In this document: one piece after another, positions 3,601 to 45,200 of the stretch | How positions within the stretch are numbered: the first letter of the stretch is position 1 | Layout of the letters: each line of letters starts with the position of its first letter | Assembly (NCBI RefSeq): GCF_003704095.1 | Contig: NW_020846655.1 | Coordinates: 62,001 to 126,000 of the forward strand | DNA from: Pocillopora damicornis | Taxonomy: Eukaryota | Reading direction: 5' to 3' | Length of the DNA: 64,000 nucleotides | Made by a program: the position numbers and the translations under genes | Notes under the pieces: generated by a model | Database searches by the model: none | What the model saw: only the letters and a program-made list of their open reading frames with translations | What the model was told of the DNA's origin: nothing

Positions 3601-6600
3601 GAACAATCACTGTACGGGACGCCATGTCAGATCTTCCGGAGATAAGGAATGGCGCGTCTAATGATGAGATCTCTTACAATGGCGATTCGATTTCTCATTT
3701 TCAAAGACAAGTAAGAGTTTTGACACTTTCTCCTCTATGTTGTATACATTTCACACCTACGCTTTTTTAGTTGTATGGAATTTAATAAAAGAAAATTTTC
3801 AACAAGTGTGGAAAATTGAAACATGATTAATGCATGAAGATAGTGCAAGTTTTCAACCAGTCACAGAGCAACCTGAACAGCAAGTCCAGATCTTGATTTA
3901 AGGCAGTTTAATTTTTTTGAAATATATGAATTTCTCTCTTACTTTCTTAGTTTGTATTACCTAAAGAAAATAAAACTTATTATTCCAAGGCTTCTCAATG
4001 AGAATAATTTACATGGCAACGGAGGACTCTGTCCAAACGAAGGAAATCGTACAGAGATTTCCCTATGCATGATGAGGCATGCAATACTGTTACACCCACA
4101 TTTGAGAATTGTGTGCAACATTCGTTTATTACTTCTCAGATGCGCGGCCGTCAAGACCAGCCAGTTCTTCGAGATCACATTTGTAAGGAAATGAATCCTC
4201 TAGTTGCTGCACGCATGCGTCACATTCCTACTGCCCCAGGATCAGACTGGAGAGATTTGCCGAATAATATCGTCCGTCTGTCCGACGGTACTTACACCAG
4301 CAAACTGTGAGTTATGGGTTCTATTGTTTTTTTTTTTGTTTTTTTTTTGTGAGTTATGGGTTCTATTGTTTTTTGATGGTCTTTCTTCAATCTTTCCACT
4401 GGATTGCAAAAACTTTGACAATTGAAAGTATGAACGATGAGCACTAGGACCTGATTGCTTTTTTTGTCAGTATTTGTTTATTTACAGAAACACATATTTA
4501 CTTTTCCCATTCTTTATGGCAAATCTTTTTCATGATAATTCTCTCCTTTTGGGAAAGCTTGGATAGTTTTCACCATTCATCGCACACTACCAACTGAGGT
4601 CATCATTGAGGTTATGTAAACTCATAATGCCGTTGGGTGTCATCGTTTATGGTCAACACTTCTTTTTTTTGCAAACACCTGCATATACTCTCTGACTATT
4701 AAGTTGAGTCGAGAGGATATTCTTTTGGTTGAATAAGACTATCACAATACCTCGCTCTCTGCTAGGTATCAGTCGTAGGTTTCTCTGTTAATTCAAAGCG
4801 ACTTAGATTACCAGAATGACGACTTAAGCGGTCTGGAGGGTGCCCATTGTCTGCCGTTTTAAATTTTTCTTCCTGTCTACTTTTTAAATCTTGAAATCCT
4901 GTGACGGAACAGGCTGTCTGTACCAACATGAAGCTGTTCCACCAAATTCCTAGCCTGCTTTGAGGGTAGAACAAGTTCTACCCATTCTAATATGTGTGGT
5001 ATCACTCGTTGCAGAGCTTATACGCACGATGACAAGAAAAACGGTCGGTCATCCAACGATGAATTACGAGGAGTTTGTTCGTGCGCAGAGCGCAAGCCAT
5101 GTGACCCGGCTGACCGTCAGGTCAACACTCTTATACCATGGTGTCTTCCACATACGGGAAACCGCCATAATCACTGGGCGGGGCTGTACGGTAGACTGGA
5201 GTGGGACGGGTACTTCAGTACAACCATCACGAATCCTGAGCCCATGGGAAAGCAGGTCGGCAGGTGCATTTACGATACAATCAGAACAGAGAAATTCCTT
5301 TGAGTACTTATGACCACTTTTCTGTTTGCGTTGTAAATTAGGAATGTCCGATCTTCTTTCTTTCTTCTGATTAGGGCCGAGTCCTTCATCCACAGCAACA
5401 CAGAGTTGTCAGTGTGAGAGAATGTGCTAGGTCCCAGGGATTCCCCGACGCTTATCGATTCTATGGAAGCATCATCGACAAACATCGACAGGTGAGTGGT
5501 AAAATAGAACATGTAAAATCCGAAGGCGTCTAACAGTTTAGAATAAAACGTGAAAAGATAAGAAGAGAATGATTGTTCAACCACATTTTGGTTTATATAT
5601 TTTGCCATCATATATAGAATTTCTGAAAGCTTAGAACAGATAAAAAAAAGAAGATGGATTTCGAACGCGGTCGCGGAATGAAGTGAGATGTTTATTCTAT
5701 CGGATGAACTAAGAATAAGTTCTTATCTCATTTACTGATTTACTTTAATGTACCGGCCTAATTGACCTTAACCTAAGTTGTACCATTGTTTAGATCCGCC
5801 GAGGAGATTTGTAAAAACCTTTCTTAAAGCGAAAAAAATCATTTGACCTCACAATACTATGCCTCGCCTCTTTCAATCTCCAGAGGGCATACAAGTGAAT
5901 TATTCCTTCTCGGTAGATAAAAGACACGTTTTTTGGGTTTCTTCAAAGACAATATCCGTCAAGGCAAACGAGTTTAGTTGTAGTCTCATTATAAGGGATT
6001 TCCGGATAAATGAATACGGCCGTGCGTTTGTCATCAAGATTGTGGTGTATGAAAATCAAGCTAGGTCACAGGAAGTAGCGTATCTTAGAAATTACCCAGT
6101 TTGGCGGCGAACCAAAATAAGCCTTAAACTCTTCCGGACAGAACCGATGTTTTTGTTGTTTCTATTATCACAGCCGCGAACATACTTGCTTTGCAACTCT
6201 TAAGTTACGTATTTTTGTTTTTTTTAAAGCGTTAATTCTTAAAAGTAGCTTTGCTGGCTTAATTCACGAAAGGGGAAATCGTGAGTCACAGTAAATTGGA
6301 TGACCCAACTAACAAAGTATTTAAATGAATTTCCTGTTAGTCCGAGGCAAAATAAAAATAACCTCCTTGAATCAATCCAAGCGATGGAAAAACTACACAA
6401 GATGACTTAAATTATTCTAATAGGTATAAAAACAAATCTGAAGCTTCTTTCGAGAGAATGAAAACATCAAATATTTTAGACGATTTAGGGTCACAGAAAC
6501 GAACGTGACAGCAAAGCTTCCCTCAGGGGATGGCGTCCGTAAATATGGAATCCACGTCATTCTGGTGGGCGCTCCCTAGTGGTTTTTCCTTGGGTGATAT

Positions 6601-8739: not shown

Positions 8740-11700
8740 TTAACATTCCATACTGACTTCACTGAGTCGCACACGCTCTGCTATACTGCTGTGTAGTTCC
8801 ATGAAAGAGGGTCTCTCCTCCATTTCTCTTGTCCAACAGCGGCACATGACCTGGTACAGATCGTCTGGACATGTCTTCGGCTGAGGTAACCGAGTGGAGG
8901 GCGTACCCGTTCCATGGAAAATCTTCTGCGCGTTATCAATGACTTCCTCGTCGGTGAGTTCCGAGTAAGGATATTCTTTAGCAAGAGTGAGTATCTCCCA
9001 TAGAGTGACTCCGAACGCCCACACATCACTAGACGTTGTAAAACGACCTGAAAATATCGACACATATGTGAAATGAATGTAAATGAAATAAGGAAAAAAC
9101 AAGTGAGATGAATCTCTTTCTCCTCCGCATTTATCTAGTTGAAACTTGTGCGCCTCTGGTATGCGTCGTAAGGGTTCCCTGGAGCCCATCCTCGGCATGT
9201 CTCGTTTTCTTTCAGAAAATATCGTCCGATCTCAGTAAACCTCACGCTTCTCTGTAAAATTGGTCGTAACCAACCACCTAAATTACCGTTCCATATTAAC
9301 ACCTCCCATCGAACGAGTGCCTCTCCTATCGACCAAAATTCAAAATATACACCCCACCCCCTCTAAAACAACTACCTCCTTTGCTCCCACAGTATAATGG
9401 CCAAACGCTCAGACAATAACAAACGTATAACAACGGCGAATTTCCTCAATTTCGTCCACCCTTGCAAAGTTATACCGAATATGATCCACTTGGTAACACC
9501 TTGAGTTTAGAGAACTAATTACGAGTCCCAATTGAGCCGCTGTGAAACTTAAGAATCCGCAGTTAGTATCAATACACCGCTTTTGCTGTCGTTGACGCTG
9601 TATCACAAAAAACGATCACATCTGAACCCCCCGTCTTACCCTAAATTCGAGATAAACCCCAGGCACTAATCCGAGGACTCGTGGTATACTATGCCACCAC
9701 CTCTTACCTTGTAGAATACATTCGGGCGCCATCCATCGTATTGGCAAAATCACACGTCCCTCGACGCGATAATAATGTTTAGAGTACAAGTTCCTTGACA
9801 TTCCGAAGTCAGCAATTTTGACGGTGTTTGCGTGTCCCACCAAACAGTTACGCGTGGCCAGATCACGATGCACATAATTTAACGAAGATATGTATTTCAT
9901 TCCTGCGGCCACTTGCTTTGCCATGTAAAACAGAGCTTGAGATGAGATATACTGTCCGGCATCTTGCCACCCCTCGCTTTCATTCAAGCTGGGCGTATGC
10001 TCTTTTTCTTTCAGGAACTGATTTAAGTCGCCATTGGCCATGTACTCAACTATCATACACATGGGATCATCCCGACACACACCTAACAACCGAATCACAT
10101 TTGAGTGCTTCAGCCCCGCCATGGCTTTCACTTCTTTAAAGAAATCATCCTTAATGTTCTTATCAACGTTCAGCTTGAGAGTTTTAATAGCCACTGTTGT
10201 ACGAAAACTGTTTTTGAACTCCCCGCCCAGAATGTCTCCCAATCGCTCAACCTCTCCAATATGCACCTCACCGAATTGTCCATCACCGATCTTTTCTTTG
10301 AAGTGAAGCTTGTGACGAGGCAGTTCCTTGAATGTGTCCAGTCTGGGTCTAAAGTTTAGCTCCTCGTCAGGATTACAATACAAACTGGTGCCCGATACGC
10401 CCTGAAATGGCTCGGAGTAAATCTCCTCGTAAATAGGATTTGGGAAAGTAGTCACTGATGTGGGAGAAATGACATCGATAGGATCAGCATACCCGCTAAC
10501 AACTCTAGGTTTGGGAGAATCCGGTATCAAGCGATTTTTTTCGCATGGGGAGTCCGGCTCGGCATAGTCATTATATGCAACATCTGATTCCTCTGTTACG
10601 TCTACTTGAGGAAGACTTTGGGCTGTTGCGGCTTTGGGAGATCCACCATTTGTAGGTGAAGGTAAAAGAGGAGTGTTAGGTTCGGCGTAAATTACCTCTG
10701 AAAGAGGCTCAGGCGGCTTCAGTGGGGGTGGTATGGGAGGTTTAACTGCAGAGAGACAAGGACAAAAATAGATGATGAACAGTATAGAGTATTCACAGAC
10801 TTTCTTTTTCTCTTAAAACATGGCCTTCCGCGCGAGTGTTGTAAGGAACGCGAACGCAATGGGAAGGAGATTTGAATTACTAACGTACAAACAATTTTTA
10901 TTTGGTTGGCAACACCGTTAACATAGTTCCCCGTAACTTAGCTTTGAGAATTGGTTTATATTTCAAAATACCACCCGCAGTTCAGTTTTTTGCTACTCAT
11001 CAATTCATTATGGGATAATGTCCTGATACCGTGGAGGGAAGAAACTTATTCCTTCCAGCAGATAAAGGGTTAATATTTTCTATACACACCTTTCTTTGAA
11101 GACTTGTGTTCAGAGTAAAGTCTTTCACCCTTTGGTATGTTGTTCTGTTCGTCGCTTTTCATAGTGCCTTTGTTCAGATCACCCTGTATACTAGCATATA
11201 TAGGACATATGGTAACCTCTGCACCACTCTTTCCACCCGCCTCATTGTACACATTGTTCTTGAAGCTGTACCTCTTTTCTTCGTTTTCACTTGCTGTACT
11301 ATCAAGTCGAGAAACGCGCTGCGGCGTCTGGTGACGCGCGTACGGCTTAACTTCGACTTTGATGAAGGAGTTGAATGGCTTTTCACGCTGAGAGAACCAG
11401 TGAGGGTAACGCTTGCAGCAAATGAACAAAGCAACAGCAACTAGGACTGCTACGACGGCACAGATGATTGCCGCAATTACACCACCGCTTAATGAACCCT
11501 TTCTAGTACCAGTCTCTCCTCCTAAATATCAAAGAAAACACTTCCGATTAGTATCTTTTCTCAAGTACATGTTGCATGTCTACTTTAGCAGTATGACCAT
11601 TTGTTTTATGCAGGGAGGGGGGGGGGGGTCCTAGTCGGCAAGAACAGCACAGGGTTCATTTCCGCTGGCTGATTTGAGTCAGGAGGTCAAAATCTGCCAG

Positions 11701-14700
11701 CGGAAATGGCCCGGGAGGTGGTGGTTCAAATCTGCTAGGTCACCAGTCTAGTCGTGTGAGGAAAGCAGAGGGCTCGGCACTTTCCCGCTGCTTCGTGCAA
11801 ACGGAAAATACAGCATTCTGTCAGGCTTTTTTTGGGCACTTCCATACGTAATAACTTCAAACAAGGTACATAATCGGATGTAGGAAAGAAAAGATATTAT
11901 CAAACCTGTATTTCCTTCATCGCTAACTGATGGGCTGCTGCTGGTGATTACACCTCTTTGGCCAGTGGGAGATTTTGTGGACAAGGGAGGAATCGAAGCA
12001 CACACGGGTATTGGGGGTGAGTTTTCATCAAGAGGATCTGACGTAAATAAAAAAGTTACGAGCATGTACACTAAGTCAACAAAGAAACTCAAGCTCAAAC
12101 ACCACAACAAAGATTACCTAAAGCTTCAACAAAAGGGAAAAACCTTAACACAAAAATACAATTGATATAGAGGAGGTGAAGATGGAAGGACTCAGAAAAC
12201 AACAAGGACACTTCTCCCCCACCTCCATGAGCTTCCAATTTCTTCACACGTTTTTCATTTTCCTTTAAATCTACTAAATAATTAAATAATTATATCAGTT
12301 TTAGAGGCATAAAGGACACACTAAAAAAGTTGTGCAAAACATGATACAATTATATAGCCCAGTATATATAATATAGTTATGTAAATCGTCTGAAAAGTAC
12401 AGCTTTCCTGGGTGAAAAAAAATTCAGAATACAAATGCTAATGTTTAAACAGAGTAGATTTCAAGGAAGCAGAGCAATCAATGGAAAATAGCTTTGAGTG
12501 AGTATCATATATCACTTAAGATATTTCACAGAAATACCAACACACTTGGTTCACCGTGGTATCACGCTATGGAACAATATCAAACCCAAAAGGTGCAAAA
12601 TAAAATCCCAATAGTGAAGCGGGACTGCACTTTCACTGGAAGAAGACAGTTCAGTGACAGTCTTTCAACAACACAAATCTTTGAACTTACTTGAATTGAA
12701 AGTAATTTCACTGATCAATATCCAATGTCCAGCATAAGTAAATTTTAACTCCATGAACTTCCCAACATGTTTGCACAAGTCAATTGTAACATTATAATTT
12801 TCCCATCTTATTCCACTTGAAATTTGCTTTGATTTGAAAGACAGTGTCTTGTCAAATGTAGCACCATCTTCACCAAATCTTACTGTAACATTAGAAAACA
12901 ACATGACACTTGCTTCATCCCTGACATTACAGTGAATGGTCACTGAATGGAAGATTCTTGTGTTCAAAAACTCAAACATAATGTAAGGATCTGGAGTATC
13001 CTTAGCATTCCAGCCAATCCAACCCACTCCATCAGTGTTGGCATAATTAACAGGAGCCAGATGACCATCAGTTAGCATTCCAAGGCCAGAGGACAGAGAG
13101 TTGCCTTTGACCAAACCATCATAACTTGAATCAGTGAAATTGTACCTTCCTTCCATTGAATTACCTTGAAGAGTCTTATATGTGACAAGTCCTGAGTAAA
13201 AGGAAGAAATTTCAAGTCAAATCAAGTTAGACAGCCAGTCATGAGAATAAAAAGAGGTATCATGGATGTACAGTTCAGTGGATGAACAACTAAGACCAAT
13301 GAATTTGTGTCCAAGGACTGGTTTGGTATACTTCACGTGCAAACGCAAGGAAACTGAGATACACAAGCTCAGCAGAGGTATTTTTCCAAGATGGCCAATT
13401 ATGATGAAACTTTTTCGTCACAGAGTTTACTGCAATATGTTATATCATTCATTATTGTTGGGAGAGTTCTGAGGAGAAATTACAGTTTACTCAATGGTTT
13501 GAGAAACATTTTATTATTGCATCAATGTACCAGTATATGCTGTATATTTATATTCTTTCATTAAACATACTGTTCTTTTTGGCCCACTTCTCTGCCCAAA
13601 TCTTTCCAAGCAAGACTCTCCTTTGATTTGTCTTAAAATTTGTGTCCAAAAGTACAGAAAATTTCCTCAGCTCTCAACCAGTTTTTTTTTCTGAAATAGA
13701 CGTCTATGCCATTTTGTTTTTCACATTACGTTTGCATTTGCATTGGCATTGCCCCAGTTCACACATGTAGGAAGCAAATACAAATGCAAGAAAATGAAAT
13801 TTGTTTCATTCCTCACATTGATGCTTGTGCTTGCACTTGCGTTATTGTAGTTCATACTTATGTTTCCTTGCATTGGCATCATATCAGTTTTAACTTCTTA
13901 ATTCTAATTAGACAATAATGTGTCAATCAGCATTTGAACTTTCGAAGATTGCCCTGTTCAAATTCCTTTATATTGTGGGTTTTACCATTTTCCTTTATGA
14001 TGTGCTCTTCTGACAAAACTAGAAGGCCAGAGTTGACAAGATACAGTTGAGCATTTTCACAAATTTATTTTGATTGCAAACCTCAGATTTACAACAACAA
14101 AAGATTATTTGTTGCATAATAACTATGAGTAGCCAAAAGCTAAAGCAGGTTTTCAAAAGACAAAATCAAATAGCCGATAAATTGGTGCTGAAACCATAAA
14201 TTACCATTTTTAAGAGGACAGCCAAGGATTTCAAGCCTCAGACACACTTGTGTTTTTGGATCTATTGTTGGAGCAATTCTGATTGCATCTGCAACAATTG
14301 GTGGCCTCAGTATGTTTTCCTGATCATTATTGTTCTTGTTACCTTCAAAGGCCTGTTAGCAAAGAAATAAAGAACAAGAGTTAATGAAGGCCACCAACCA
14401 CATAATAATCAAAGTTAATTGAGATTTGTGAGAGTTCACTTAAAATGGTAGCTAAGGCCAACAAAATTCTGTTCCTTCAGCAGCTATTTGTAATGATGGA
14501 AGCTGCATAACTCAAGCATTGGATTAAATTCATCGCTCTCAAAACTACTTGTTCAAACAAAGTTTCACACAATCTTTCAATTATTGTGAAAATACAAACA
14601 CACTACTGACCAGTAGCAATAAACATGCTGATTCTGAATAAAAAACTGATGATATAATGAAAATTGGCAACCATTGCCAACCAGGATTTTTTGACAACCA

Positions 14701-17145
14701 TTATTTCTGTAAATACTTTCAAATAAAATTTTTTTTTTGGGAAAGATGTGGTAAATATTCTAAAGAGCAAATGAGCAGACAGCAAGAATACTTTCTTTTC
14801 TCAGTGAATAAAATTCAATCACAGCATATCAGTATTGGTGACCACAGCCACCATGGAGCTTTTCAGGGTCAATGAGGCATAAAACAAAAGGTTTCAAGTA
14901 AAAGAAAAAAACTGGGAGGATGTCATATTAATTGGCCTTGTAAAGGGCACAAAAAAGAAAAAATAGGGTGAGTGAGGAGGTGGATGGCTTAGGTTTGCAG
15001 CCATCACATCACAAATCTACCAGCCTGTTCCCTAACCAGTCCACCATGTTACCTCCTCAAATTGTCTGGCTCACATTTACTGTATACAAAATTTTATCAA
15101 GTGTGTCTGATAATTTATTAGTACATACCTTTGGTCGAGGGTTTTCACCATCATAATACCAATCATAGGTCAGTTTCTTTTCTTTAGAATAACTAATCCA
15201 GTACTGTTCTACTTTTTCTACTCCTTCATGACGGCCCTGTGTCACAATGCCTTTGATTCGCAAAGAAGTGTCAAACTGAACTTGTATGAACTCTTTGTGA
15301 ATTGTAGCTGTATCATTTTCATATGGCCTCTGATCAGGGCACCACCCACCATATCCATCAATATGATTCAACCTAGCATAAGTAGCCATACTTAGTGGTC
15401 GAGAAGAAGTGGCACGAATGTTTTCATCCTTGATAAGACCATTTTCCATTCCCAAAGGCAACAAACAATCTATAAAGAATGATAAAAGAAGTGACTAGGA
15501 TCATCATATTTTCCCCTTACATGACAGGTCTGCTCTCATTACATGGTAAAGCACAGTTCCTATACAAAGAGCTAGCAGTTGTCACTATCATATTTAAAAA
15601 CTATTCCATGAGTGCGTGTTGAATATTAGATGGTAACTACAGTAGCCATTGAGGTGCTTATTGCCAAGTTGGCCAAAACCACTCAGATCAAACAATTGAG
15701 AGTGAATTGGATATAGAAGCAATCCTTGCAGTTATGAACACTACTGAACTAGTAATTGAAATAAGGCCTAAAAAAAATTCAGGCCTATACGGGATTTGAA
15801 CCTATGACCTCTGTGATACCAGTGCAGCACTCTAGCAACAGAGCTAACAAGCCAACTGGGAACTGGTCATTATTTTGAATTCAAATAAACCTTCCAAGTG
15901 GTGAATAATGAATGTAAATATATGAAAATCATATATGTGTACTGAGGTTGAAGAAACAGATATAGAAGCAATCCTCGCAGTTATGAACACTACTGAACTA
16001 GTAGTTAAAACAAATATTTCAACTTTCCAATATTGCTTTAAGAGCTCACTAAACTTGATTTCACTCTGAAAAATTGTTATAAATTAAAATGACAGGTAGC
16101 CCATTTTACTTCTCCCACAAAAATGGCAAAATAATCACATGACATGTTACACTGAAGTGTAGTGTTGTGTGAAGAGTGTTAATGATACATGTATTTAGTC
16201 AAGAGTGGGATGTCATATTTTAATCTGGCTAATAAGGGTTATGTGAAAGTGAAAGAACCATATTATATGGAGAACAAGAGAAATATGTAAATCACATGTA
16301 TCTAACTACCCCATCTCTTAAGTTCTTCAGATTTACTGGTAGTTTGCAACATGAAACTGCATCGATTGTTGGGAGTGTTATCATTATTGATTTTTAACCT
16401 TTAAGCCCTCTTCTTTCCAGTTGAGTATTCTTCTGCAAATTGCCTCCTTGTTTGTGAGGCGCTAGGAGGATTTATTTTTATCAAGGATGGAGAAAAAAAG
16501 AAGGAAAAATGAGCTAGATCATTTCAGCCTACAGCCCAACTACAGACAGAATTTTGAATTATGTTGATAATTCTTCTATGTACTCAAGAAGAAATTTTGG
16601 CCTATGTTCCACCCCCTGATATTTGAACAGAAGACAATAGCAGGACTATGGGGACAAAAGCAAATCTTGCAGTAGGGGAGGCAGGGGATAATGTGTTTGA
16701 TCCAAGTTTTAATGCATAAATTAATTTTCCAATAGATAAAATTCAAATAAGTGAGTAAGTGAGTAAGTGAGTGAATTTTCCTTCCATACCTAAACCTGTA
16801 AATGTAGCTATCACATACATGTCAGTTAAACAAAGTCAAGCTTATTTGTTCTTCATATGTTCCTTTCTAGAGAAACACATTTACCTTAGTTCCTGTTTTA
16901 AATTAGTGAATCAGACCACATTTGTATCAAACTTTGCAAAGATGAACAAAACTGTGGGTCTAATTGTTGATCTTCAGGTCTTAGTATCAAGAAAGCTGTA
17001 TAAAGAGAATACATACAAATAAAACTGGGAATACAATGCAGTTAGTTGTCTGAGATGATCCAAAACAGAACTTACCTTCCTGACACCCTCCAGAAATAAA
17101 AAAGGCACTTGCCAAAAGTAACATTTTCCACAAAGAAACAATCAT
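8740..17145 (-). CDS. DDR2: Discoidin domain receptor tyrosine kinase (DDR1/DDR2-like), ~989 aa
   Basis: Coding exons in transcript order: 17145-17076 (signal peptide MIVSLWKMLLLASAFFISGGCQE); 15469-15129 and 14352-14205 (F5/8C discoidin: CLLPLGME..GGWCP..TQGRH..CLRLEILGC); 13191-12691 (DS-like domain); 12037-11906; 11521-11090 (TM GGVIAAIICAVVAVLVAVALFICC); 10745-9708 (GDGQFGEV, VAIKTLK, HRDLATRNCLV, DFGMSRNLYSKHYYRV); 9047-8740 (SDVWAFGVTLWE, TAA). All phases are consistent. The donor at 11090 is the least certain. The symbol denotes the family; orthology to DDR1 vs DDR2 cannot be resolved. Confidence 0.93.
15711..16003 (-). mobile_element. tRNA-derived SINE-like repeat with ~43-bp direct repeats at both ends
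   Basis: The minus strand of 15781-15853 reads ggcttgttagctctgttgctagagtgctgcactggtatcacagaggtcataggttcaaatcccgtataggcct (degenerate A box, B box ggttcaaatcc). atatagaagcaatcct(t/c)gcagttatgaacactactgaactagta occurs at 15711 and 15960. Confidence 0.7.
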
Positions 17146-21440: not shown

Positions 21441-23838
21441 TCAGTATTGTTACGCTGCACCCAAAAGTGCGTCTTATTATCTCTTTGTATTTCCAGACAT
21501 TGAGTCTACCTCGTTGTTAAATTTTGATTTTGACCATACATAGAGTGGTTGTGGCAAAAGATTTTCCTCTGTGCCATGCTGGGATGGATTGTAGTGTTAA
21601 GTGTTTACTGCAAGTAATCTTTATTAACATCCATCTAACAAGGAAAGTTTTCGGTTTTGAATTATACACTCATCTCACTCTTTTGAAATTTCACTTTCCC
21701 GCATTGCCTAAAGCCCCACACAAATCTGTATCTATTCATTTTATTCATTTTATCATGATAAAAGGCTTCTTTTGTTCAAGATAAGTTTCTTGTGTTTCTT
21801 GTGTGATGTACTGTACTAAGGTAATGGTGATGATACACATTAATTTGAACCTAAGTAGGGTATGGTGGGAAAAGGAACACAATATCTTTATATTTTTTAC
21901 TGTATCAGTCTCAATGGGAGGGGTACCCTCCTCGTTCAGCCTAAACTGGTATATGCCAGTGAACAGAGAAACAGGGTGTAAAATTTCACATTTAGTTTCT
22001 TGAACAGGGAGCCTATCTGGACTAAACAGGTTTTGTATGATAGCAGCACATGGTCCCCTCCCAACAAATAACACTCATTTTAGGGTTTAAAGGGACTTGA
22101 CACACCCCTCCTACCTCCTTCCCCACCATTTCTTTGTTTTGTTTGGGGTCAATCTATATTTCTAGTTTGGCTAATTTTTTTTCCTTTCTTTCCTTTAATT
22201 TTTCATTGTCTCCTATTCTACCTATAAATACAAGAATGTGGCTAAATGTCAGTCATTTTAAGTGAAAGGCAGTAACTTGTCACTTCTATATGACAGTGCT
22301 GAGTTCTCAAATGAAGGAAGTCTTGACTTTAAGTGGTAATTTTCCCAATATTTGCACTCTGGCTGAATGCCACATGATCTTGGGATTTCTTGAATTCATG
22401 CAACTTCAGCAGCAAATTTCATCAATTACCATAACAAACTGTTCCATATTAGGCCTTTAATGGAAAATGACTGATTATACAAGTTTAAAACAGGAATGGG
22501 AATCAAGTAAACTCATAATGTTTTATAATTATCACAAAAGACATAGAAGATCTGAAAAATGCAAGAATGACAAGTCCAAGATGTCAATTCCAACCTATAA
22601 ATAACAGGGCATTTATGCAATGAAGTTGTGTATCTTGGCCAATAAAGGTTTTTTTCTCTACCAAAGACAGGATATGAACAAAGGTTCACTTCCCCTCACC
22701 TATGCTATTGAACAAACCACAAACAACACTGGGTACATGTAGGTATTCATAGAAAGAAGGTCTTTAATCAACGCAATGAAAACTGGATAATACTCTTAAA
22801 TCCTTTCAAAGACTAAAATTGTAATTGCCCCCCAGGTTCATGTAGTAGTTTCTTTTAGTATTTGAAAAATTTCCTCTGTGGTTAGTTACTCCAATTTTTC
22901 TAAAAACATTGAATTCTCACACAAGTAAAATCAGGGAGAGATAATGTTGGCCTAACAAAAAACCAAAGAAGGAAATTCCAAGGTGTGTTCAAGGGCCCCA
23001 ACAAATTTAAAGACTTAACCTCAAATAGCTCAATTAAGTTTTCTCCCATAGTGTACCATGACAATAAACCCTTCTGTTCCTTTCTCTGCCCTTTTAACCA
23101 CCAGGGCCTCACAACTGCCTTTCCATCACCTTCCATGTTTTTTTATGAATAGTTACTTTTAGACAGAGTGACTAACTTGAACACAATTACATGAAACAAA
23201 ACTAAGTATTGTGCTGAGTCAGTCTTTCATTCTGCTGTAACACAACATTCTGATGTTATGGCATTGGCAAAAGATTGAATTTTTTTTTTTTTTTACATTA
23301 ATGTACAATCCACATTATAACAAAAAAGGTTGATTGTTTCAAACATTTATGAACAATCCATATATTTAATTATTAAAACACCCCTTTCTACAAGTGATAG
23401 ACAGGGACACCATAATAGACCACAGGTGATATATCACTCTTTAATGAAGTCTTTGTCTCCAAATTTTGATTCCTGCATAGTGGATGCATTGTTCTCTATA
23501 TTTTTTAATGACAAAAAATGAAAAATTAGTATCTGAATTAAATAAACAATTATCTAAAAATTGAATGCAATATGCACATAAATAATACAGACACATTTAT
23601 TAAAAATTTCTATACAGCAAAAGGAAACAAAATATTATAATCAAAAATTATACTGGTTGTGCAAACTGGCCTCTTTTGAAATTGTATTTTGTCCTTCCAT
23701 GAAAAAAAATTTTTAGTTTTTCAGTTTTTCTGTCCTTCGTGGTTTGCAGTTTTCTTAACTTTCTATGCATTTTTGTATTTGGTTGGATACCAATTTAAGG
23801 TGTTAGTCAGATGGAACATTAAACGTAGTTTCTTGTTC

Positions 23839-26800
23839 TTAATTAAATGAAAATTTCTTAAAAGAGACTTTTTCTCTTATATTAGCCAAGCCTAATGGGT
23901 TTGTGGTTGTCTCTTTGGATATAGGACCACTAAGCAAAGGCCTGGAACAAAAGGTCATGCACAAAATGAGGAAGAAGGACTTAAGCAAACCATTATGGAC
24001 TGGGAAATTTTCTTTCATGAAGAACAGAAAGGTGGTAACTTAAAAGTTTAACAAAAGGTTACCTAAACTTACCTAATGACTGACTGATGTCTGGAACAGC
24101 AGAACCCACATCAGATGGAGAGGAAGACCTCATAATTCTGTGTGAAACATACCAACCAGAGCAAGCTCCAGCAGCTATAAACAAAAAAGAATGTCAATCT
24201 TAAAGGAAGAAAAGTAAAAAAAGGCTGTGCCAAATCAATTTAATGACTACATTTTTACATGAAGTGTAATCATTTTTCTCACATTGTAAACAATTCTGAT
24301 CCATGTCAGATGTGATTACATTATGAGACAAATGAATATACTTCAAATATAGGAAAAAATATTTTTCATGCTTAGAGCAGTACCTTTTCAGAAATAAAAG
24401 TTGTTTATGTCCAGTGATTTCTTTAATATTCTTAATCTGGGTTAAAACTACGGGAATAAATGAGGTTCTGAGCTCAAAAGAAACCCTTTACTCATGGGGT
24501 TTTCTACCTAAAACACACTAAAGTAAGTTTTTCAGTTGACTAGCACATTCAAGAACAGAACTGATATGCTGGGAGGCATTTCTAATAAAAGAGGAAAATG
24601 ACATTCCATAGACAGAATCATCTTTAAGATATGCCTGAACACAGCCTGTTACACTGAGTGACAAAGTTAATGGTAACCAGCATTGGCAAACAGCACTTGG
24701 ATCTTAGATTAAACTTCATCATTTTGTTGGAATGGAAGTTCATGAGGATTGAAAAGTAATTTGCATAGAACATCTGCAACTTTATATAATATTGTGAAAC
24801 AAGAAATTACTGAGAATGTTTCAAATCAAACTAAGTACAACTTAAATGTGTGCTTTTTCTGTTATTATGATAAGCAAATGATGCTTTTCATGAAATCACA
24901 CCCATATTCTTCCAATTTTGTCGCTCTTGTGAGTATACAACTGTATTATATATACATCAGAGTGAATTTTCAGTCATGATATAAAAGGAAAATGAACTTT
25001 TGATATCTCATATATCGATAAAACCCTTATATTAACACATACTTAGAGACAAAAGTGGAATGTACTTCTTGGGTATTTGCAGCCGGAAGAACGAAAGGCC
25101 TGAAAAAGTCACGCTACTACCTAAAAGTTGAAACAAAGAAATAATTCTGTATGTACTTACTAAATAGACAAAACCACTAAAAGTAATATTGAGGAAGTAC
25201 CACCCCCTCACCTCTACTGGTAGAGGTGAGGGGGTATCTGAGTCTGGCCCCCTTCTAAAAGAAACAATCAAATTTACACCAGAAATGGAACAGATTTCCA
25301 AAATGGGCAAAATTTCTGCAGCTTTCTGTCCATATCAATATAAGAAGAGATTCCTTCACTTCTTGCACTGCATAAGATATTCAATACATGTCATTCATGA
25401 AATATATTAAAGTTCACACGGCAACCAGGTGGACAATCAGACATTCATGTTTAGTATGTGCCAATAGATGTTGTCTCATCAGCACATTTGTCATAATATT
25501 CAACAATAATTATTCACCGAGGTGGAGGTAACTAGATGTATCTTATAAGACATTTTTGTGTGTAGTATTGCCGAGTATTCTTGCAAGTTGTGCCATATTT
25601 TAACAAGCACGTAGGGTGACTCAAAATACAAACAAGTAGAAATACTCAGCGATACTAAACACCAAAACGTCTAATAAGTTATTTATTATCCAACCGCTTT
25701 TTTTCTGCTAAGTCTTTCTGCTCACTTCTCATAAGGCAGGAAAAGCAAAGTAGATAGAGAAGTGTAGCACACACAGCTGACTGGTTAAACAGGCTTATTT
25801 TCAGTACAAAATAACCAACTGTCCAAACAACCATCCAATATCGCAGGATATTTGTACTCTATTCACCCATTATTTGTTGTCTACTTTGTGCAGTTGGATA
25901 ATAATAGTGCATATTTCCAAAGTTGCAAGGTAAATATCCACCACTTTCACAGACACTGCATCAGGATGAATAATTGTTTTATAATAAACAACACAGATAT
26001 GAAAAACTAGCTTATTTGCATCACTATACTGAAAAATGGTCAGAAAATTAATCTTTTGATATGCGATTTTGTCTCATCCACTCCTTAGAGGTGAATAGTA
26101 CTTCCTATTCACTTCTCAACTTGCCAATCAGCATGTGCAAAAAGCACTATTCACTTGCGTGGCATATACTAAATATATATACTGTTCTCAGAAGTTACTC
26201 CATGATCCTACAGTACTAGGTTCTGTTTAAAATGTTTATTGACAAAGAAAATTCAGTGATCAAAAGCACACACCACAGGTTATGTCATTTATCAGTGCCT
26301 TACAGATCAATCATTAGCCTCAGTCTTTGGCTGCAAAGGTTTCTACCAACAGATCACAGTTTTCTCAAAAGCAACCTTGTCCATTATCTTTGATTGGTGG
26401 AAAACAATTAACTGTTCCTCAAAACTGATCAACAAGTGCAACATCTATTGCGTCATGAAGATTTTTACGGACTAATTCCCTCTACTAACTCTTCTTTAGG
26501 TAAGATATGCACAAGAACAAAACTTTTATCAGAATTCTTAAGTTTAAAAATTATATATAAAGAGGCTTGCTTGTACAAGCTTACCTATTATTATTGACCA
26601 AAGGCCATACCATGCTGCCTTCCCTTGACGCTTTCTCCACTCCAATAAATCCTGTAACATCAACAGAAAATGACGCCAGGATCACAAATAAAGGACTGGC
26701 CCCGATTTTAATAACAACCCATGACATAAATAGTAATATAATTGAAACAAATATAAGTAAGATGGCCGACGTACACAAAAAATACCATTACTAACACTGC

Positions 26801-26919
26801 ATACAACATGACTTGCAGTTTATCCCATTTTTAGGAAAAAAACAAAAGACAGAAAAAAAAAAAAGATTAAGTCCACTTACAGGGCGTTCATGGGCTGTTT
26901 GTCGATTGACCCAATCCAT
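23839..26919 (-). CDS. Uncharacterised small single-pass membrane protein (4 coding exons, 85 or 106 aa)
   Basis: Exons 26919-26881, 26651-26585, 24174-24073 (or 24063) and 23941-23892 (or 23839), with canonical cag/tag acceptors and gtaag/gtaac donors, all in frame: MDWVNRQTAHERP-DLLEWRKRQGKAAWYGLWSIII-AAGACSGWYVSHRIMRSSSPSDVGSAVPDISQSL-G... There is a ~21-aa hydrophobic segment, a minus-strand AATAAA near 23600 and a CpG-rich promoter at ~27.0 kb. Confidence 0.7.
25505..26170. repeat. Nested interspersed repeats in intron 2 of the small gene
   Basis: A palindromic element (aataattattcaccgaggtggagg ... gtaaatatccaccactttcacagacact..gaataattgtttt) appears to be split by a ~375-bp second element (~25530-25905). 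Confidence 0.45.
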
Positions 26920-27046
26920 GACACAAAAATGGTGGGTACGAACTACATCACAGAGAACCCTAGAGAACCCTAGCTGCTCGAAACCCGGAGTATCATTTCG
27001 TTTCCAGTTTTAACCGCGAGAAGTCAGGTCTTCGTTTACATCGTGC

Positions 27047-27056
27047 TGCGCATGCG
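27047..27056. promoter_or_regulatory. NRF1-type palindrome TGCGCATGCG in the promoter of the small gene
   Basis: Match to the NRF1 core (GCGCATGCG) about 130 bp upstream of the ATG at 26919, within a CpG-rich patch. Confidence 0.45.
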
Positions 27057-27079
27057 AAAGATCATATGACATGACGGGA

Positions 27080-27510
27080 TATGGCGACGGAAGGGCGAAG
27101 AGCTTGTGGCGGAGACCTTTTGAGAAGCTAAAAGTTTCCATTGAACGAGGTTTGACGAGGTCCGAAACTTTAACGAGGTTTAGAACTAAGAGAAATTAAG
27201 GTCGGATTCGCCGTTGCCGTGGCCTCAAATGAGCTACGGCGATGTTTTGCATTGTCTCAGGAGTAGTTCTGGCGATTTCACGGCGGAGAAGTTTAAGTCC
27301 TATAAGAATCTTAAAGCTCACGGTTACTCTGTTTCAAGGAAAATTGGGTCGATTAAAAACTTTACAGTAAACTTCAACCCAGACATATACGCAGCACTAA
27401 AAGCCTAAGACCTGTTAAGCCTGGATCCAAGTGAGAATCTCATCTTCCTTGCCCTTAGTATCACAAAGGAGGGTGGGGATCGTAGATATATAACGGCGTA
27501 ATATGTGACT
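27080..27510 (+). pseudogene. Decayed transposon-associated ORF (N-terminal region of SWIM/YqaJ-type proteins, as in ISL2EU/Harbinger-group elements)
   Basis: WPQMSYGDVLHCLRSSSGDFTAEKFKSYKNLKAHGYSVS...AALKA resembles the recurring WPx(I/V)xYGDIxxYL...LKAYKSLxAYxYFxSG..LKAKV motif. It continues through stops and frameshifts into VKPG..SHLP..ITKEVGIV. Recognised from memory only. Confidence 0.5.
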
Positions 27511-30495: not shown

Positions 30496-31474
30496 AGGCA
30501 ACTTCGCACCAAGCCTAGTTCTTGTGCTTGGATCGCGAGAACAAGAAAATGGCCCTCTGGTTAGCCTCAACATCACACCAGTGACGTCACAACGTCAACA
30601 TGCAGAAGTGTCAGCACAATAATAATATTCCCTCTTTATTTGGCAATATCATCATTTAGAGTAAGGTCAATCCGTGTTAGAGAATCTTGACCTTGGTCGC
30701 CTGTACAGATTTCTCGGAGTAATTGCGGAATGCCCTGCCACTTTGATCCACCTCATTTACATGTGTCGTGTGGCTTTCAAGAACGAGGCATAGCACAATA
30801 GAATCTATTATTATTCAATGACATGTAACTGAGTAGCAGGTTATTCTGCAGTTAGCCGAATCGTGGCTTCAGCACCCATAAGATTTGTTACGGCGTTGTA
30901 GTAAACCGAACATGAAGAAGCACAAGTAATTGTTCCTGTCTCCGTTGTTTAATAAGTTGCACATATCGCTGCTAAGCTCTTTTCTTTGTCTCCACATCTC
31001 GTGAGTTTCTAGAATAGTCAATTTGAACGTAAGGAATGATCTTGGTGAAAATGATACGAGTCGGGTTTACCTAAAGAACAAATCACAACTTCAGTAAAAT
31101 TGTCGAAATAAGTATGCACTCAAGCAGGGCGCTGGTCAATCCTCTTTGCTGTGTTTAGAACAAGGTTGTTTTTAAAAAGATAGTTGTGCGCCTTACCATG
31201 ACGAGCGATGCAAACTAATTATAAGGAGCTCGGCGTCCACGGGCAAGGTTACTACCACCATTTAACCACCTCTGTTGTTTCGGAGCATCCATAGTAACCT
31301 AAAAAAGAAACTTTATCATCCACACTCCATGCAACACAGCGAGGTTTAACCACTGTTTAATGAAAATAGCAACTGAGCAACACGTTCTTCTCAATAGGGT
31401 TAGAAACATTCCCACGATGCATTGCAAGGAACATTGATTTGACTTGAAGTTATCCGACCAAAAAATTAAGAACT

Positions 31475-32806
31475 ATGGCTAGAGTCAGTGAGGATCTCGT
31501 CAGGTCGGATCTCGTCAGGTCGGATCTTTACGACTACGCTCCTGCCTCAAACTTACTATTGAACGAGAAGGTGAAAGAGCTTATGGCATCTGGAAAGCCA
31601 GTATATCATCTAGCGTTCGGTCAGTCACCATTTCCAGTAATGGAGTCAGCTCGCTTGGTTCTCGCACAGAACGCCGAGAAGAATGCTTACCTTCCCGTGG
31701 CTGGAATCTCGCAGCTGAGGAACGCCATCTGTGAATTTCATCGAGAATTTGACGGTTTTGAAGTTTTGCCAGACAACGTTATTGTTGGACCAGGCTCTAA
31801 GGAACTGATCTTCCTCCTCCTCGCGGTTTTCAGTGGTGATGTCTTTGTTTTGTCTCCTACGTGGACAACATTCAAGCCCCAAGCTCGCCTTGCGCACCAC
31901 GATGCCATAGTTATTACAACTGAGTATCGGCACGACTGGCGGGTCACTCCGGACATATTAGATCGAGCTCTTAGCCGATCATCCGCGAAAAACAAAATCA
32001 TCGTTTTGGTCAACCCCGATAATCCTACGGGAACTGCTTACACTCAGGAACACTGGAAAGAATTACTGCCGGTCCTTATAAAACACAATGCCATCGTACT
32101 GTCCGATGAGATTTATGGACGTTTGAACTTTGCAGACTCTCACTGTTCATTGGTAAAGTTTTATCCAGAAGGAACCATTCTGAGTTCAGGTTTGTCTAAG
32201 TGGGCCAGTGTAGGTGGTTGGAGGGTAGGCTATCAGATCTACCCAGCTCAATTGAGACCCTTGTTAGATGCTGTCAAAAGTGCTGCAAGCCATTCTTACT
32301 CATGTGCGGCTGCACCCATGCAGTATGCTGCTGTAACTTGCTTTACTCCATCCAAAGAGTCAAAAGCTTACATAGCCCATGAATGCCGCATCCTGGCAGC
32401 CATAGCTGATTATAGTTATCAGCACCTTACAGAAGTAGGGGTGAGAGCTGTGAAACCTCAGGGTGGCTTCTACATGTTCCCTGATTTTGAAGTCATCAGA
32501 TGTGCACTTTCCAATCGGGGTATCACCACTGCACAGCAAATGTGTGATGCAATCTTTGAAGAGGTGTCAGTCGCACTCATGCCTGGAGGTCCAGCATTCC
32601 TTAGACCTTCAACAGAACTCACTGTTCGCTTGTGTTTTGTTAATTTTGACGGCAGTGTTGCATTGAAGGCCAGTATGGCCATTGGACTTCACAAACCACT
32701 TCCTGAAGGATTTGTGGAGGAACACTGTGTGCTGACAGTAGGTGGAATCCAGGCTCTCAAACAATGGACTCTTAATCAAAAGGCTAGTGTGTCTCATGAC
32801 TTGTAA
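31475..32806 (+). CDS. Intronless PLP-dependent class I/II (aspartate aminotransferase-like) aminotransferase, 443 aa
   Basis: Uninterrupted ORF with fold-type I motifs: HLAFGQSPFPV, YLPVAGISQLRNAI, IVGPGSKELI, LVNPDNPTG, LSDEIY, SGLSKWASVGGWRVGY (PLP lysine), PQGGFYMFPD, VRLCF. A 15-nt tandem duplication at 31492-31527 gives DLVRS-DLVRS-DL. Confidence 0.92.
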   Translation: MARVSEDLVRSDLVRSDLYDYAPASNLLLNEKVKELMASGKPVYHLAFGQSPFPVMESARLVLAQNAEKNAYLPVAGISQLRNAICEFHREFDGFEVLPDNVIVGPGSKELIFLLLAVFSGDVFVLSPTWTTFKPQARLAHHDAIVITTEYRHDWRVTPDILDRALSRSSAKNKIIVLVNPDNPTGTAYTQEHWKELLPVLIKHNAIVLSDEIYGRLNFADSHCSLVKFYPEGTILSSGLSKWASVGGWRVGYQIYPAQLRPLLDAVKSAASHSYSCAAAPMQYAAVTCFTPSKESKAYIAHECRILAAIADYSYQHLTEVGVRAVKPQGGFYMFPDFEVIRCALSNRGITTAQQMCDAIFEEVSVALMPGGPAFLRPSTELTVRLCFVNFDGSVALKASMAIGLHKPLPEGFVEEHCVLTVGGIQALKQWTLNQKASVSHDL

Positions 32807-42200: not shown

Positions 42201-45200
42201 GACAAACTTAAGGAGATTTTTGTTGTTAAACAAATTCTCCTTGTTAGCACCTTAGGAAATGTATAGAGAACAGTATGGAGAATATGCATACTGATGTTAG
42301 AGTGTAGAATGTTAAGAGGTCACAACAGGAAAGTAAGTTGCTCCAGAAACTGAAAAGGGAATCCCATTAGTGTGATTTTCGTATCACTTTGGAAAGGAGT
42401 CAGTAACAAAATTAATTAGTTCTTAGAGCTGAATAGCCCTAAATACCTTTGTTAAATCTTCAGGAACTACAGAAAATGGATGAGCGAAGAATAAAGAGAA
42501 CTGGTGAATTATTAGAGGAGTATGCAAATATAGAGGCCAAAGTTATGCCTATAATACAAAAATGTCTGGATAACATGAAGGACAATGGAAAATCAGTCAA
42601 TGGACAACAGGTATTGATCTCTTTTTAACTCTTCAACTCCCGGAAGTGATTAACATGTATTTTCTCCCCATAATATTCATGTATTATCCAGCAAACAGGT
42701 GATGAGAATACTCAAATTTGTCAGGTAGAAGTTGTTGTCTTGATCTAACATCAAGTTCTCATAACTAATTTACAAGGCAATGTGTAGCAGCTAGAGGGGA
42801 GAATTATCACTCAGATCTCAAGATTTAAGAGATGTCCAACATGATCCAAACAGTCTTTTGCTAATTTACATTGTGCAATTCAGTGTGAAGAACATAGCTA
42901 CACAGTAATATGATAATTTGATAATTTTCAATAATATGAAAAAGATGACCCTGGCTAATACCTGTACATGGCTCAAACACAAAAACTATTGTTCCTTGAA
43001 GGAAGATTACCCCAGCAAGAAAGTGAGATAACCTCACCCCTAGTACATCTCCTTACCTTTAGATAAACAGAACCAGGAAAAACAACAGAAAGCAGGGTTA
43101 CCTAGCTATAGGTGTTTCCCCCATATCCATGTAGATAAAGCCTAGTGAAAGATATTTTTTGCAACATCAGGACAGCAAACTCCTGTGTGATCAACATAAA
43201 ACTGAGTACAAGCCACCTCAAGATATCCAGTTTGAGGAATATGGCAGCAAACACACTCTCCCCAGACAGCCTGCTAGTGAAACCAAGGGCAAAAAAGGGA
43301 AGAGTATCTTTACTGGAAATAAAAAAAAGAAAAAGGTATGAAGCAAGCCATTGACCAGTATTGAAAATGAAATTGAATGGTCAAATGCAGTAAACTTCAA
43401 AATTAACAATTTAGTTGCTTTCACTTTGTGGGTTTATTTGCAAATTTTGAAATTCATAATAGGTTTGAAGGTATGGTATTCATTCAATTAAGCACCCAGG
43501 GATAATTACTTGTCAAATTTTTAGACCTTGAGAGAGGGTGCCTACTTGAGATGCATGCTTATTCAAGGCTGGGCACTTATCACATTTTCATCATTTTCAG
43601 CAGGTAGTACATTTACTTTGAAACACAAGAAAAGTTGTAAATTATCCTAAACCCTAGCTTTAATTGTGTGTGAAGCTTGTTGAAGATTGTCATTGGGGGC
43701 AAAGGATTTGTATTTATAGATCTTTCCTTTATTAATGACAGTCCTTCAAAATTTTGACTTAAGAATCACTGATATTTGGAACCAACAGAGAACATATGTA
43801 GTTGACATAATAAATGCAATATCTGCAGGAGATATTGTATTTATTATGTCGAGTTCAGAGTCAGCCTTGTTTCCAAGACCCTTGTCCATGTAGTTTTCAC
43901 AAACTTATATAAACTCAGAGAGGAATTCAAAATGGCTGAATGCTTTTAAAAAGTGTATAATGAAACAATTATAAGAGAATTGAATTATTAAAAATCAGCT
44001 TATATGTAAATGAATGAATGAATCAAATGTCATGTTTGTATTATTTGCCTCAGCCTTCACATTTCAGCAGATAACTCAGATGTTGGTTTTGATAATTCAT
44101 AAAATCTTGCTCAACCTCATCCAATGATTGGTTATTACCTTATCTTCTTTCTTTTTCTTCAGAATGTTGATAACGGATTAGATGGTAATGATCAAACATT
44201 GACACCAGGACAGAAGATTCGCACTTCTAAAAAGAAGGTGCAGCAGTTAGAGGCACAAGTGGCACAGCTCAAGAACTCCAGGTACCTAGCCCTGTTGTCA
44301 CTCTGTATTTTTTTTTCTAAATATTGTGATTTATATACTTTTGTGTTGGACTGGAGAGAGGGGGGGTTCAGAAAAGTTACCTGAAGTTTGTCATTGTTGT
44401 GTCAAGTTGTTACACTCAGAAATGTATTAAGAAAGTTATAGGAGGATGGACCATGAGACAGATAGACATAGATAGTCAGACTGACTGACTGACTGACTCA
44501 CTGAGTGTCTGAATGTCTGCTTGAGGGACTGTTTCACCCTTAAACTCCCATGAGTGACCAAGACAGAATTTTTGCTTACAATATCAATGCAATATCAAGC
44601 AGTCAAGAGATAAGAATACACAAAAATATTAATCAGGGGATTATAAGGTGATTCAATAACCATTTTTTTCTATATAAAAAATACAAATCGTATGGCAGAC
44701 AGTAACAAGAACTGCTCATGAGATTTAAGGAGTTGAAAGGTGACTGACTGAACTTCTAACAGAGATACAGAGAGGGATAATGAGAAATGGATAGAGAGAG
44801 AGAACATCGACAGACGAGCACAAATACAAGCAGATTGCTATCCTTTTCAGAAAATAGCTAGACAAAAACTTGCGATGAAAGGACGAGGAGAATCAAAATT
44901 TTTTTAATTCCCTTAACCCTTCAACCCCTAAAAGTGACTAACATCTAATTTCTCCCTACAATATCACTCCCACAAATCACACATTAAGGTATTGAGACTA
45001 AAGGAAATGATCACCAACTTAAAAGGTTCTTGACTGTTAAACAAAGTCTCCTTGTCAGCACCTCGAGAAATGTATAGAGAACAGTGTGGAGGATATGCAT
45101 ACTGATGTTCGAGTGTAAAGGGTTAAGGTGTGCTGGAAGTCCTCTACAAGTTGTCGGCCACATTTTATTGGTTTTCCGTCACAGTTCAGCGGTACTCATC

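What the first reader, a model, noticed from the sequence alone, without database searches (positions are those of the whole stretch)
23839..26919. Hidden four-exon microprotein gene invisible to the ORF track
Seen: four short minus-strand exons with strong splice sites join in frame to MDWVNRQTAHERPDLLEWRKRQGKAAWYGLWSIIIAAGACSGWYVSHRIMRSSSPSDVGSAVPDISQSLG... It has a basic patch, one TM-length hydrophobic segment and a Ser-rich tail. There is an NRF1-like palindrome in a CpG-rich promoter, a YY1-like aagatggc in intron 1, a CpG-depleted body and a poly(A) signal. I do not recognise the family. Inference: a housekeeping single-pass microprotein. The architecture and NRF1 site are compatible with a mitochondrial SMIM-type protein, but this is unproven.
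Basis: partly seen in the sequence, partly recalled or inferred. Interest (0 to 1): 0.7.

Follow-up and report, generated by a model that had tools for sequence, protein, structure and literature searches.

The report
Coral TMEM141-like two-helix membrane protein gene
This is a real, spliced five-exon coral gene that databases already list as an unnamed 115-residue protein; it is related to human TMEM141 and likely acts as a small two-helix helper protein of the mitochondrial inner membrane, so it is ordinary apart from gaining a family name.

Summary
RNA contigs show a missed 78-nt exon (25043-25120; both flanking joints in 4 of 4 runs). The last exon starts at 23495 (joint in 1 of 4 runs), not 23941. 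The five-exon product (115 aa) is identical to RefSeq XP_027052796.1 (Pocillopora damicornis LOC113680002 X1), so it is not hidden. It is predicted to be a two-helix hairpin, not single-pass. Anthozoan-only profiles find human TMEM141 (PDB 2LOR) as the only significant hit (E 1.6e-4), and profile-profile comparison to TMEM141 proteins above the Pfam cut-off gives 96.6%. The protein itself stays under the cut-off (15.1 vs 27 bits). Mitochondrial inner-membrane location and a respiratory-chain accessory role are inferred from mammalian TMEM141 and untested in coral. The CpG pattern and NRF1-like site are present. The YY1-like motif is at chance level, and the cited poly(A) signal is intronic.

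The parts
27001..27500 (.). CpG-rich promoter region
   Evidence: CpG o/e 1.21, GC 0.45
27047..27056 (.). NRF1-like palindrome about 60 nt upstream of the inferred start of transcription; binding untested; consensus recalled
26920..26986 (-). 5' UTR; 5' end inferred near 26986
   Evidence: X5 contig stops at 26986 with a loose end that I recognise from recall as a template-switch adaptor (tables 7-8); one run only, and contig ends are weak evidence
26881..26919 (-). Exon 1 coding part (39 nt, aa 1-13), phase-0 intron follows
   Evidence: RNA cover in 4 of 4 runs; identical to P0016
26585..26651 (-). Exon 2 (67 nt, aa 14-35), first half of predicted membrane helix 1
25043..25120 (-).
   Evidence: both joints in 4 of 4 RNA runs
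24073..24174 (-). Exon 4 (102 nt, aa 62-95): end of helix 2 and variable linker
23434..23495 (-). Exon 5 coding part with conserved K[FY]GD tail motif and stop
   Evidence: joint in 1 of 4 runs; gives the database C-terminus
23320..23433 (-). 3' UTR as far as one RNA contig reaches; candidate poly(A) signal ATTAAA at 23365-23370
   Evidence: X5 record 9; cleavage site not shown
23839..23941 (-).
   Evidence: no joint among those shown; 0 of 58 proteins match

Best explanation
A single-copy, five-exon, spliced gene encodes a 115-aa protein related to TMEM141 (likely its coral orthologue) that is predicted to fold as a two-helix membrane hairpin and likely works as a small accessory protein of the mitochondrial inner membrane that tunes respiratory-chain (complex I) activity and ROS output. 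Shown: exon structure, expression as spliced RNA, identity to the RefSeq protein, conservation across stony corals, anemones and octocorals, and sequence homology to TMEM141. Predicted: short N-terminal helix, helices 13-46 and 53-78, a three-basic-residue loop and a disordered linker. Inferred from mammals: location and function; the N-terminus (6 basic, 4 acidic residues in aa 1-24) does not look like a cleavable presequence, so import would use internal signals. The conserved K[FY]GD tail is likely a partner-binding motif. My odds: gene model 0.97, TMEM141 homology 0.92, one-to-one orthology 0.8, inner-membrane respiratory accessory role 0.6.
For: Joints. Five-exon translation identical to P0016 = XP_027052796.1. 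Named homologues in Stylophora, Oculina, Montipora, Acropora, Exaiptasia, Nematostella, Xenia, Dendronephthya, Paramuricea. PF15110 hit in 21 of 41 proteins scanned, best hit in 19, over the cut-off in 4; OCIA in 0 of 41. A 6-sequence stony-coral profile run on 1.84 billion proteins retrieves two proteins above the PF15110 cut-off (P0038 E 2.3e-6, P0039 E 4.7e-6). Human TMEM141 2LOR is the only PDB hit with E<0.1 for coral-only and anthozoan-only profiles (E 1.6e-4). hhalign probability 96.6%, E 5.7e-10. An HMM of 3 above-cut-off TMEM141s scores the protein 9.9 bits against at most 3.8 for 500 shuffles, and its 4 stony-coral relatives 22.9-34.3. K[FY]GD tail in 10 of the 11 A5 rows printed, including the 3 strong TMEM141s. 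The Atlas ranks TMEM141 clusters first for both queries (0.91, 0.92). One locus in the own genome. Mouse liver and human-cell TMEM141 is in the inner membrane, ER and plasma membrane, and its loss cuts complex I activity by 45% (PMC13486791 sections 9, 10).
Against: The protein itself scores 15.1 bits against the 27-bit Pfam cut-off; single-sequence phmmer to 2LOR gives E 0.86. Helix 2 is weakly hydrophobic in this species (best 19-residue Kyte-Doolittle mean 0.75; 1.07-1.97 in relatives). The model is of modest confidence (pLDDT 63, pTM 0.36), and fold search puts 2LOR only at rank 9, E 4.1. OCIA-domain clusters rank 2nd-3rd in the Atlas with nearly equal scores, and only 5 of the 10 best named hits share a family. 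The mammalian complex I link rests on one paper whose ND1 contact is a docking model and whose co-IP lists 1,542 proteins. No localisation or function data for any cnidarian.
Confidence: 0.75

Rival explanations
1. One reading: a four-exon single-pass microprotein of unknown (SMIM-type) family ending in 23839-23941.
For: The joins are in frame and the splice sites look canonical. The exon 2-to-4 join exists as RefSeq isoform X2 in two species (P0004, P0006).
Against: Exon-3 inclusion joints in 4 of 4 runs; neither the skip joint nor the 23941 acceptor is among 15 of 45 joints shown. Last-exon frames match 0 of 58 proteins. The X2 clusters have 1 member each, NCBI-derived only, against 7 members for the full form.
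Confidence: 0.03
2. The gene is an OCIAD (asrij)-type or other sister two-helix mitochondrial protein, not the TMEM141 orthologue, and would act as a prohibitin-associated assembly factor.
For: OCIA clusters score 0.89-0.91 in the Atlas, and one carries PF15110 on 14% of its members. OCIAD1 is a two-helix inner-membrane protein with both termini in the intermembrane space (PMC8154037 passages). From recall only, OCIAD1 ends in a similar short tail motif. No separate OCIA gene was found in the genome, but those searches are insensitive.
Against: OCIA appears in 0 of 41 Pfam scans and PF15110 in 21; profile searches lead to TMEM141s above the cut-off that carry the same tail.
Confidence: 0.08
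3. It is the TMEM141 orthologue, but its main job in coral is outside mitochondria (ER or plasma membrane) or unrelated to complex I.
For: Mouse TMEM141 also fractionates with ER and plasma membrane (PMC13486791 section 9). The coral protein has diverged strongly and has a tail that did not align to the human chain (aligned 7-88 of 108).
Against: Low helix hydrophobicity and look-alikes that are mostly mitochondrial inner-membrane families. TMEM141 is used as a mitochondrial membrane marker in PMC8664129.
Confidence: 0.14

Closest known systems
Pocillopora damicornis LOC113680002 isoforms X1 (XP_027052796.1) and X2 (XP_027052797.1)
   Same: X1 is identical to the five-exon product; X2 is identical to the exon-3-skipped product.
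   Different: Annotated only as 'uncharacterized'; no family name given by the source.
TMEM141 (Pfam PF15110; human PDB 2LOR, 108 aa)
   Same: Homologous core of about 75 residues, similar length, N-terminal helix plus two membrane helices; the exon ends fall in aligned core positions.
   Different: Below the Pfam cut-off on its own. Pocillopora has Arg where 10 of the other 11 A5 rows have a conserved Cys (position 21). It carries a variable linker and a K[FY]GD tail that did not align to the human chain.
OCIAD1/OCIAD2 (Pfam PF07051)
   Same: Two-helix inner-membrane architecture (PMC8154037); near-equal language-model feature scores; similar tail motif (recalled, not tested).
   Different: No HMM match in 41 scans; no alignment could be made because no OCIAD sequence was held.

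Membership tests
TMEM141 | Significant sequence homology over the N-terminal core to established members | tested here: met
   Profiles hit 2LOR at E 1.6e-4; hhalign 96.6%; reverse HMM beats 500 of 500 shuffles
TMEM141 | PF15110 score at or above the curated 27-bit cut-off for this protein | tested here: not met
   15.1 bits; closest relative P0005 26.8. Hence filed as TMEM141-like / likely orthologue, not as a formal Pfam member
TMEM141 | Two membrane helices in a protein of about 110 aa | tested here: inconclusive
   Model shows helices 13-46 and 53-78 at pLDDT 68-82; hydropathy of helix 2 is weak here (0.75) but 1.07-1.97 in relatives; insertion not tested
TMEM141 | Fold match to the solved human structure | tested here: inconclusive
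   Foldseek rank 9, E 4.1, TM 0.30; not in the 50 VIA rows shown; helical hairpins do not discriminate
TMEM141 | One-to-one orthology (single copy, tree with sister families) | tested here: inconclusive
   One locus found with its own protein; no other PF15110 locus over the cut-off, but that search also missed this gene; no tree with outgroups built
TMEM141 | Intron positions shared with bilaterian TMEM141 | tested here: inconclusive
   P0058 leaves P0038 (an above-cut-off, unnamed member) at the position of the coral intron 2, as a read-through would; bilaterian gene structures not available
TMEM141 | Mitochondrial inner-membrane location and effect on complex I | not testable with these tools
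   Known only for mouse and human cells (PMC13486791)
OCIAD1/2 | OCIA domain (PF07051) | tested here: not met
   0 of 41 proteins scanned
Single-pass SMIM-type microprotein | One membrane helix in a protein of at most about 100 aa (usual definition, recalled) | tested here: not met
   Main form is 115 aa with two predicted helices; only isoform X2 (89 aa) would fit

The most novel reading that the evidence does not exclude
In-frame skipping of exon 3, annotated in both Pocillopora and Stylophora, is a regulated topology switch. It fuses the halves of the two helices into one membrane span and flips the conserved K[FY]GD tail to the other side of the inner membrane. That tail is an ancestral docking motif kept in anthozoan and echinoderm TMEM141 (and possibly shared with OCIAD1), giving corals a splice-controlled dial on mitochondrial ROS that could matter in heat stress.
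Probability: 0.07. Interest if true: 0.6.

Novelty: new member of a known kind. Interest (0 to 1): 0.2.

Why it matters
Modest. It names an 'uncharacterized' anthozoan gene family as divergent TMEM141, extends that family to cnidarians, and points to a conserved C-terminal K[FY]GD motif that lies beyond the part matched by the 91-position Pfam model. Since mammalian TMEM141 was recently tied to complex I activity and ROS, the gene is a reasonable candidate to check in coral heat-stress data and is testable in Nematostella (LOC125570089). No cnidarian TMEM141 paper turned up: TMEM141+cnidaria 0 papers; TMEM141+coral 3 papers, none on corals by title or abstract start. Subscription journals are mostly not in the library.

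Tried and rejected
Pfam on single-exon translations: 0 of 5 hit; too short. PF15110 on the own genome: 2 weak matches elsewhere (17 bits, under the cut-off), and this gene was missed, so the search is insensitive. PF07051 on the own genome: nothing, and nothing in the controls either; uninformative. Sea-cucumber TMEM141 (P0056) on the own genome: no match; not evidence of absence. Looking for a separate OCIAD gene with two short tail patterns: 0 and 9 matches (controls 1 and 14). One duplicated site on contig C335 had the motif just before a stop, but the ORFs in about 10 kb upstream on each side looked like GPCR genes by eye and showed no OCIA-like frame (not HMM-scanned); dead end. Fold searches: no Foldseek match at E<=0.001; best VIA Z 8.3 and 8.0 with rmsd above 6, within background for helical hairpins. 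(2LOR at E 7e-10) is partly circular, because that profile holds P0038 and P0039; I rely. P0001, P0002, P0012-P0014, P0025-P0028 and P0040-P0045, P0047 are intron read-through gene calls, and P0046 is a repeat-protein chance hit; all left out of the profiles used for homology (P0014 was in A1 only). Low-depth intronic contigs (2-20) occur in introns 2, 3 and 4 alike and may be pre-mRNA or DNA, so they were not taken as evidence of intron retention. A second laying of RNA runs was not obtained, so the last-exon joint rests on 1 of 4 runs plus database proteins. Literature searches gave nothing that bears on corals or on an OCIAD-TMEM141 link (listings only). Earlier findings of this scan: none.

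Full report
1. Observation. The promoter is CpG-rich (o/e 1.21) and the 3' gene body CpG-poor (0.0-0.19; 0.26-0.45 in intron 2). From established knowledge, that pattern fits gene-body methylation of constitutively expressed invertebrate genes. An NRF1-like palindrome sits at 27047-27056 (core 8-mer 2 found, 0.20 expected; chosen post hoc; the other copy is at 4212). The YY1-like 8-mer is at chance.

2. Real structure. 23 runs hold part of the region; four from four studies were laid, all as contigs. All four join exon 2 to a 78-nt exon at 25120-25043 (1,464-nt intron) and that exon to 24174 (868-nt intron), both GT-AG. One of four (X5) joins exon 4 to 23495 across a 577-nt intron, with one substituted base at the exon end. 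The other three show no deep cover of the last exon, which the tool warns proves nothing. The exon 1/2 joint was not displayed either; zero depth in the intron-1 bin in 4 of 4 runs and the layout of X5 record 16 support it indirectly. The five exons give 115 aa with the stop ending at 23434, identical to RefSeq XP_027052796.1 of Pocillopora damicornis and one residue from a P. meandrina protein. The locus is single-copy in the own genome.

3. The skipped isoform. Leaving out exon 3 keeps the frame and gives 89 aa, identical to RefSeq isoform X2 (XP_027052797.1); Stylophora has the same annotated skip. It removes aa 36-61 and would leave one weakly hydrophobic span (best mean 1.16). Both X2 entries are single-member clusters from NCBI-derived sources only, whereas the full form has 7 members including 4 seen in Logan. 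I read X2 as a minor form; its level was not measured.

4. Family. Homologues occur in stony corals (53-64% identity outside Pocillopora), anemones and octocorals. All named anthozoan entries are called uncharacterized or hypothetical, except one UniRef label 'Transmembrane protein'; only the Oculina entry carries a precomputed PF15110. Conservation is high in exons 1-3, helix 2 and the last 14 residues, and low in the Ser-rich linker. PF15110 (TMEM141) was hit by 21 of 41 proteins scanned, as best hit in 19 and over the cut-off in 4; the window's own protein scores 15.1 bits, under the cut-off. A profile of six stony-coral sequences found 26 proteins at E<=0.001 among 1.84 billion, two of them above the PF15110 cut-off. 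Coral-only and anthozoan-only profiles give human TMEM141 (2LOR) as the only PDB hit under E 0.1. Anthozoan against three above-cut-off members (one named from sea cucumber) gives 96.6% by hhalign, and those three end in the same K[FY]GD motif. The Atlas ranks TMEM141 first but OCIA-domain clusters almost level, so a sister-family reading is kept as a small rival; I could not find or exclude a separate coral OCIAD gene.

5. Structure. AlphaFold2 on a 14-row alignment gives helices 2-11, 13-46 and 53-78 and a disordered tail (mean pLDDT 63). Fold searches are uninformative for such a hairpin.

6. Mechanism. Shown: gene, splicing, conservation, homology. Inferred: membrane hairpin with both ends on one side and a basic loop on the other; inner-membrane location; accessory action on respiratory complexes. 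The basis is PMC13486791 (abstract, introduction, sections 9 and 10, discussion read; supplements not read). It reports TMEM141 in the inner membrane, ER and plasma membrane, co-migrating with complexes I, II, V and a supercomplex, with a 45% loss of complex I activity and lower ROS on knockout; the ND1 contact is a docking model. PMC8664129 (two passages) uses TMEM141 as a mitochondrial membrane protein marker. PMC8154037 (12 passages) gives the OCIAD1 topology used for the rival.

7. Verdict. An ordinary, already annotated coral gene, corrected to five exons and assigned as a divergent TMEM141-like protein. New member of a known kind; interest 0.2. The residual novelty is the conserved tail motif and the possible topology-switching skip isoform (probability about 0.07).

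Noticed in passing
window 27088-27278: A 1,216-nt RNA contig in run X6 (depth 113) matches 191 nt just upstream of the promoter with no differences, then leaves the stretch at a place with no obvious splice donor. The DNA is single-copy. Possibly a divergent transcript from a bidirectional promoter, with the NRF1-like site between the two starts.
   Followed up: partly
window 26943-26948 (-): A start-stop mini-uORF (ATG directly followed by TAG) in the inferred 5' UTR, in weak context; the main ATG has G at -3 and +4.
   Followed up: no
window 26951-26970: A 10-nt tandem duplication in the 5' UTR; run X5 lacks one copy (table 4).
   Followed up: no
window 25400-26200: Intron 2 holds a dispersed repeat: many 85-95% alike RNA contigs with loose ends pile up there.
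   Followed up: no
model of P0016: A 98-aa chain of Tetrahymena complex IV (8b6h_EG) ranks 1st in Foldseek (E 0.8) and 2nd in VIA (Z 8.0, rmsd 6.5), and an unnamed, mostly ciliate cluster scores 0.90 in the Atlas. Not significant, but a lead that a distant relative is a respiratory-complex subunit.
   Followed up: partly
window 8740-15494 (-), 31448-32806 (+), 45078-45491 (+), 54608-58374 (+), 904-5303 (+): Neighbours: discoidin-domain receptor tyrosine kinase, intronless class I/II aminotransferase, TOCA-family HR1 protein and SH2 protein; DNMT1-like exons at the left end (recalled resemblance; the one exon scanned gave no Pfam hit).
   Followed up: partly
L005, L006, L013, L014 (G000:C335:100200-123400): An inverted duplication lying in a cluster of single-exon GPCR-like ORFs (by eye), found while looking for an OCIAD gene.
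   Followed up: no
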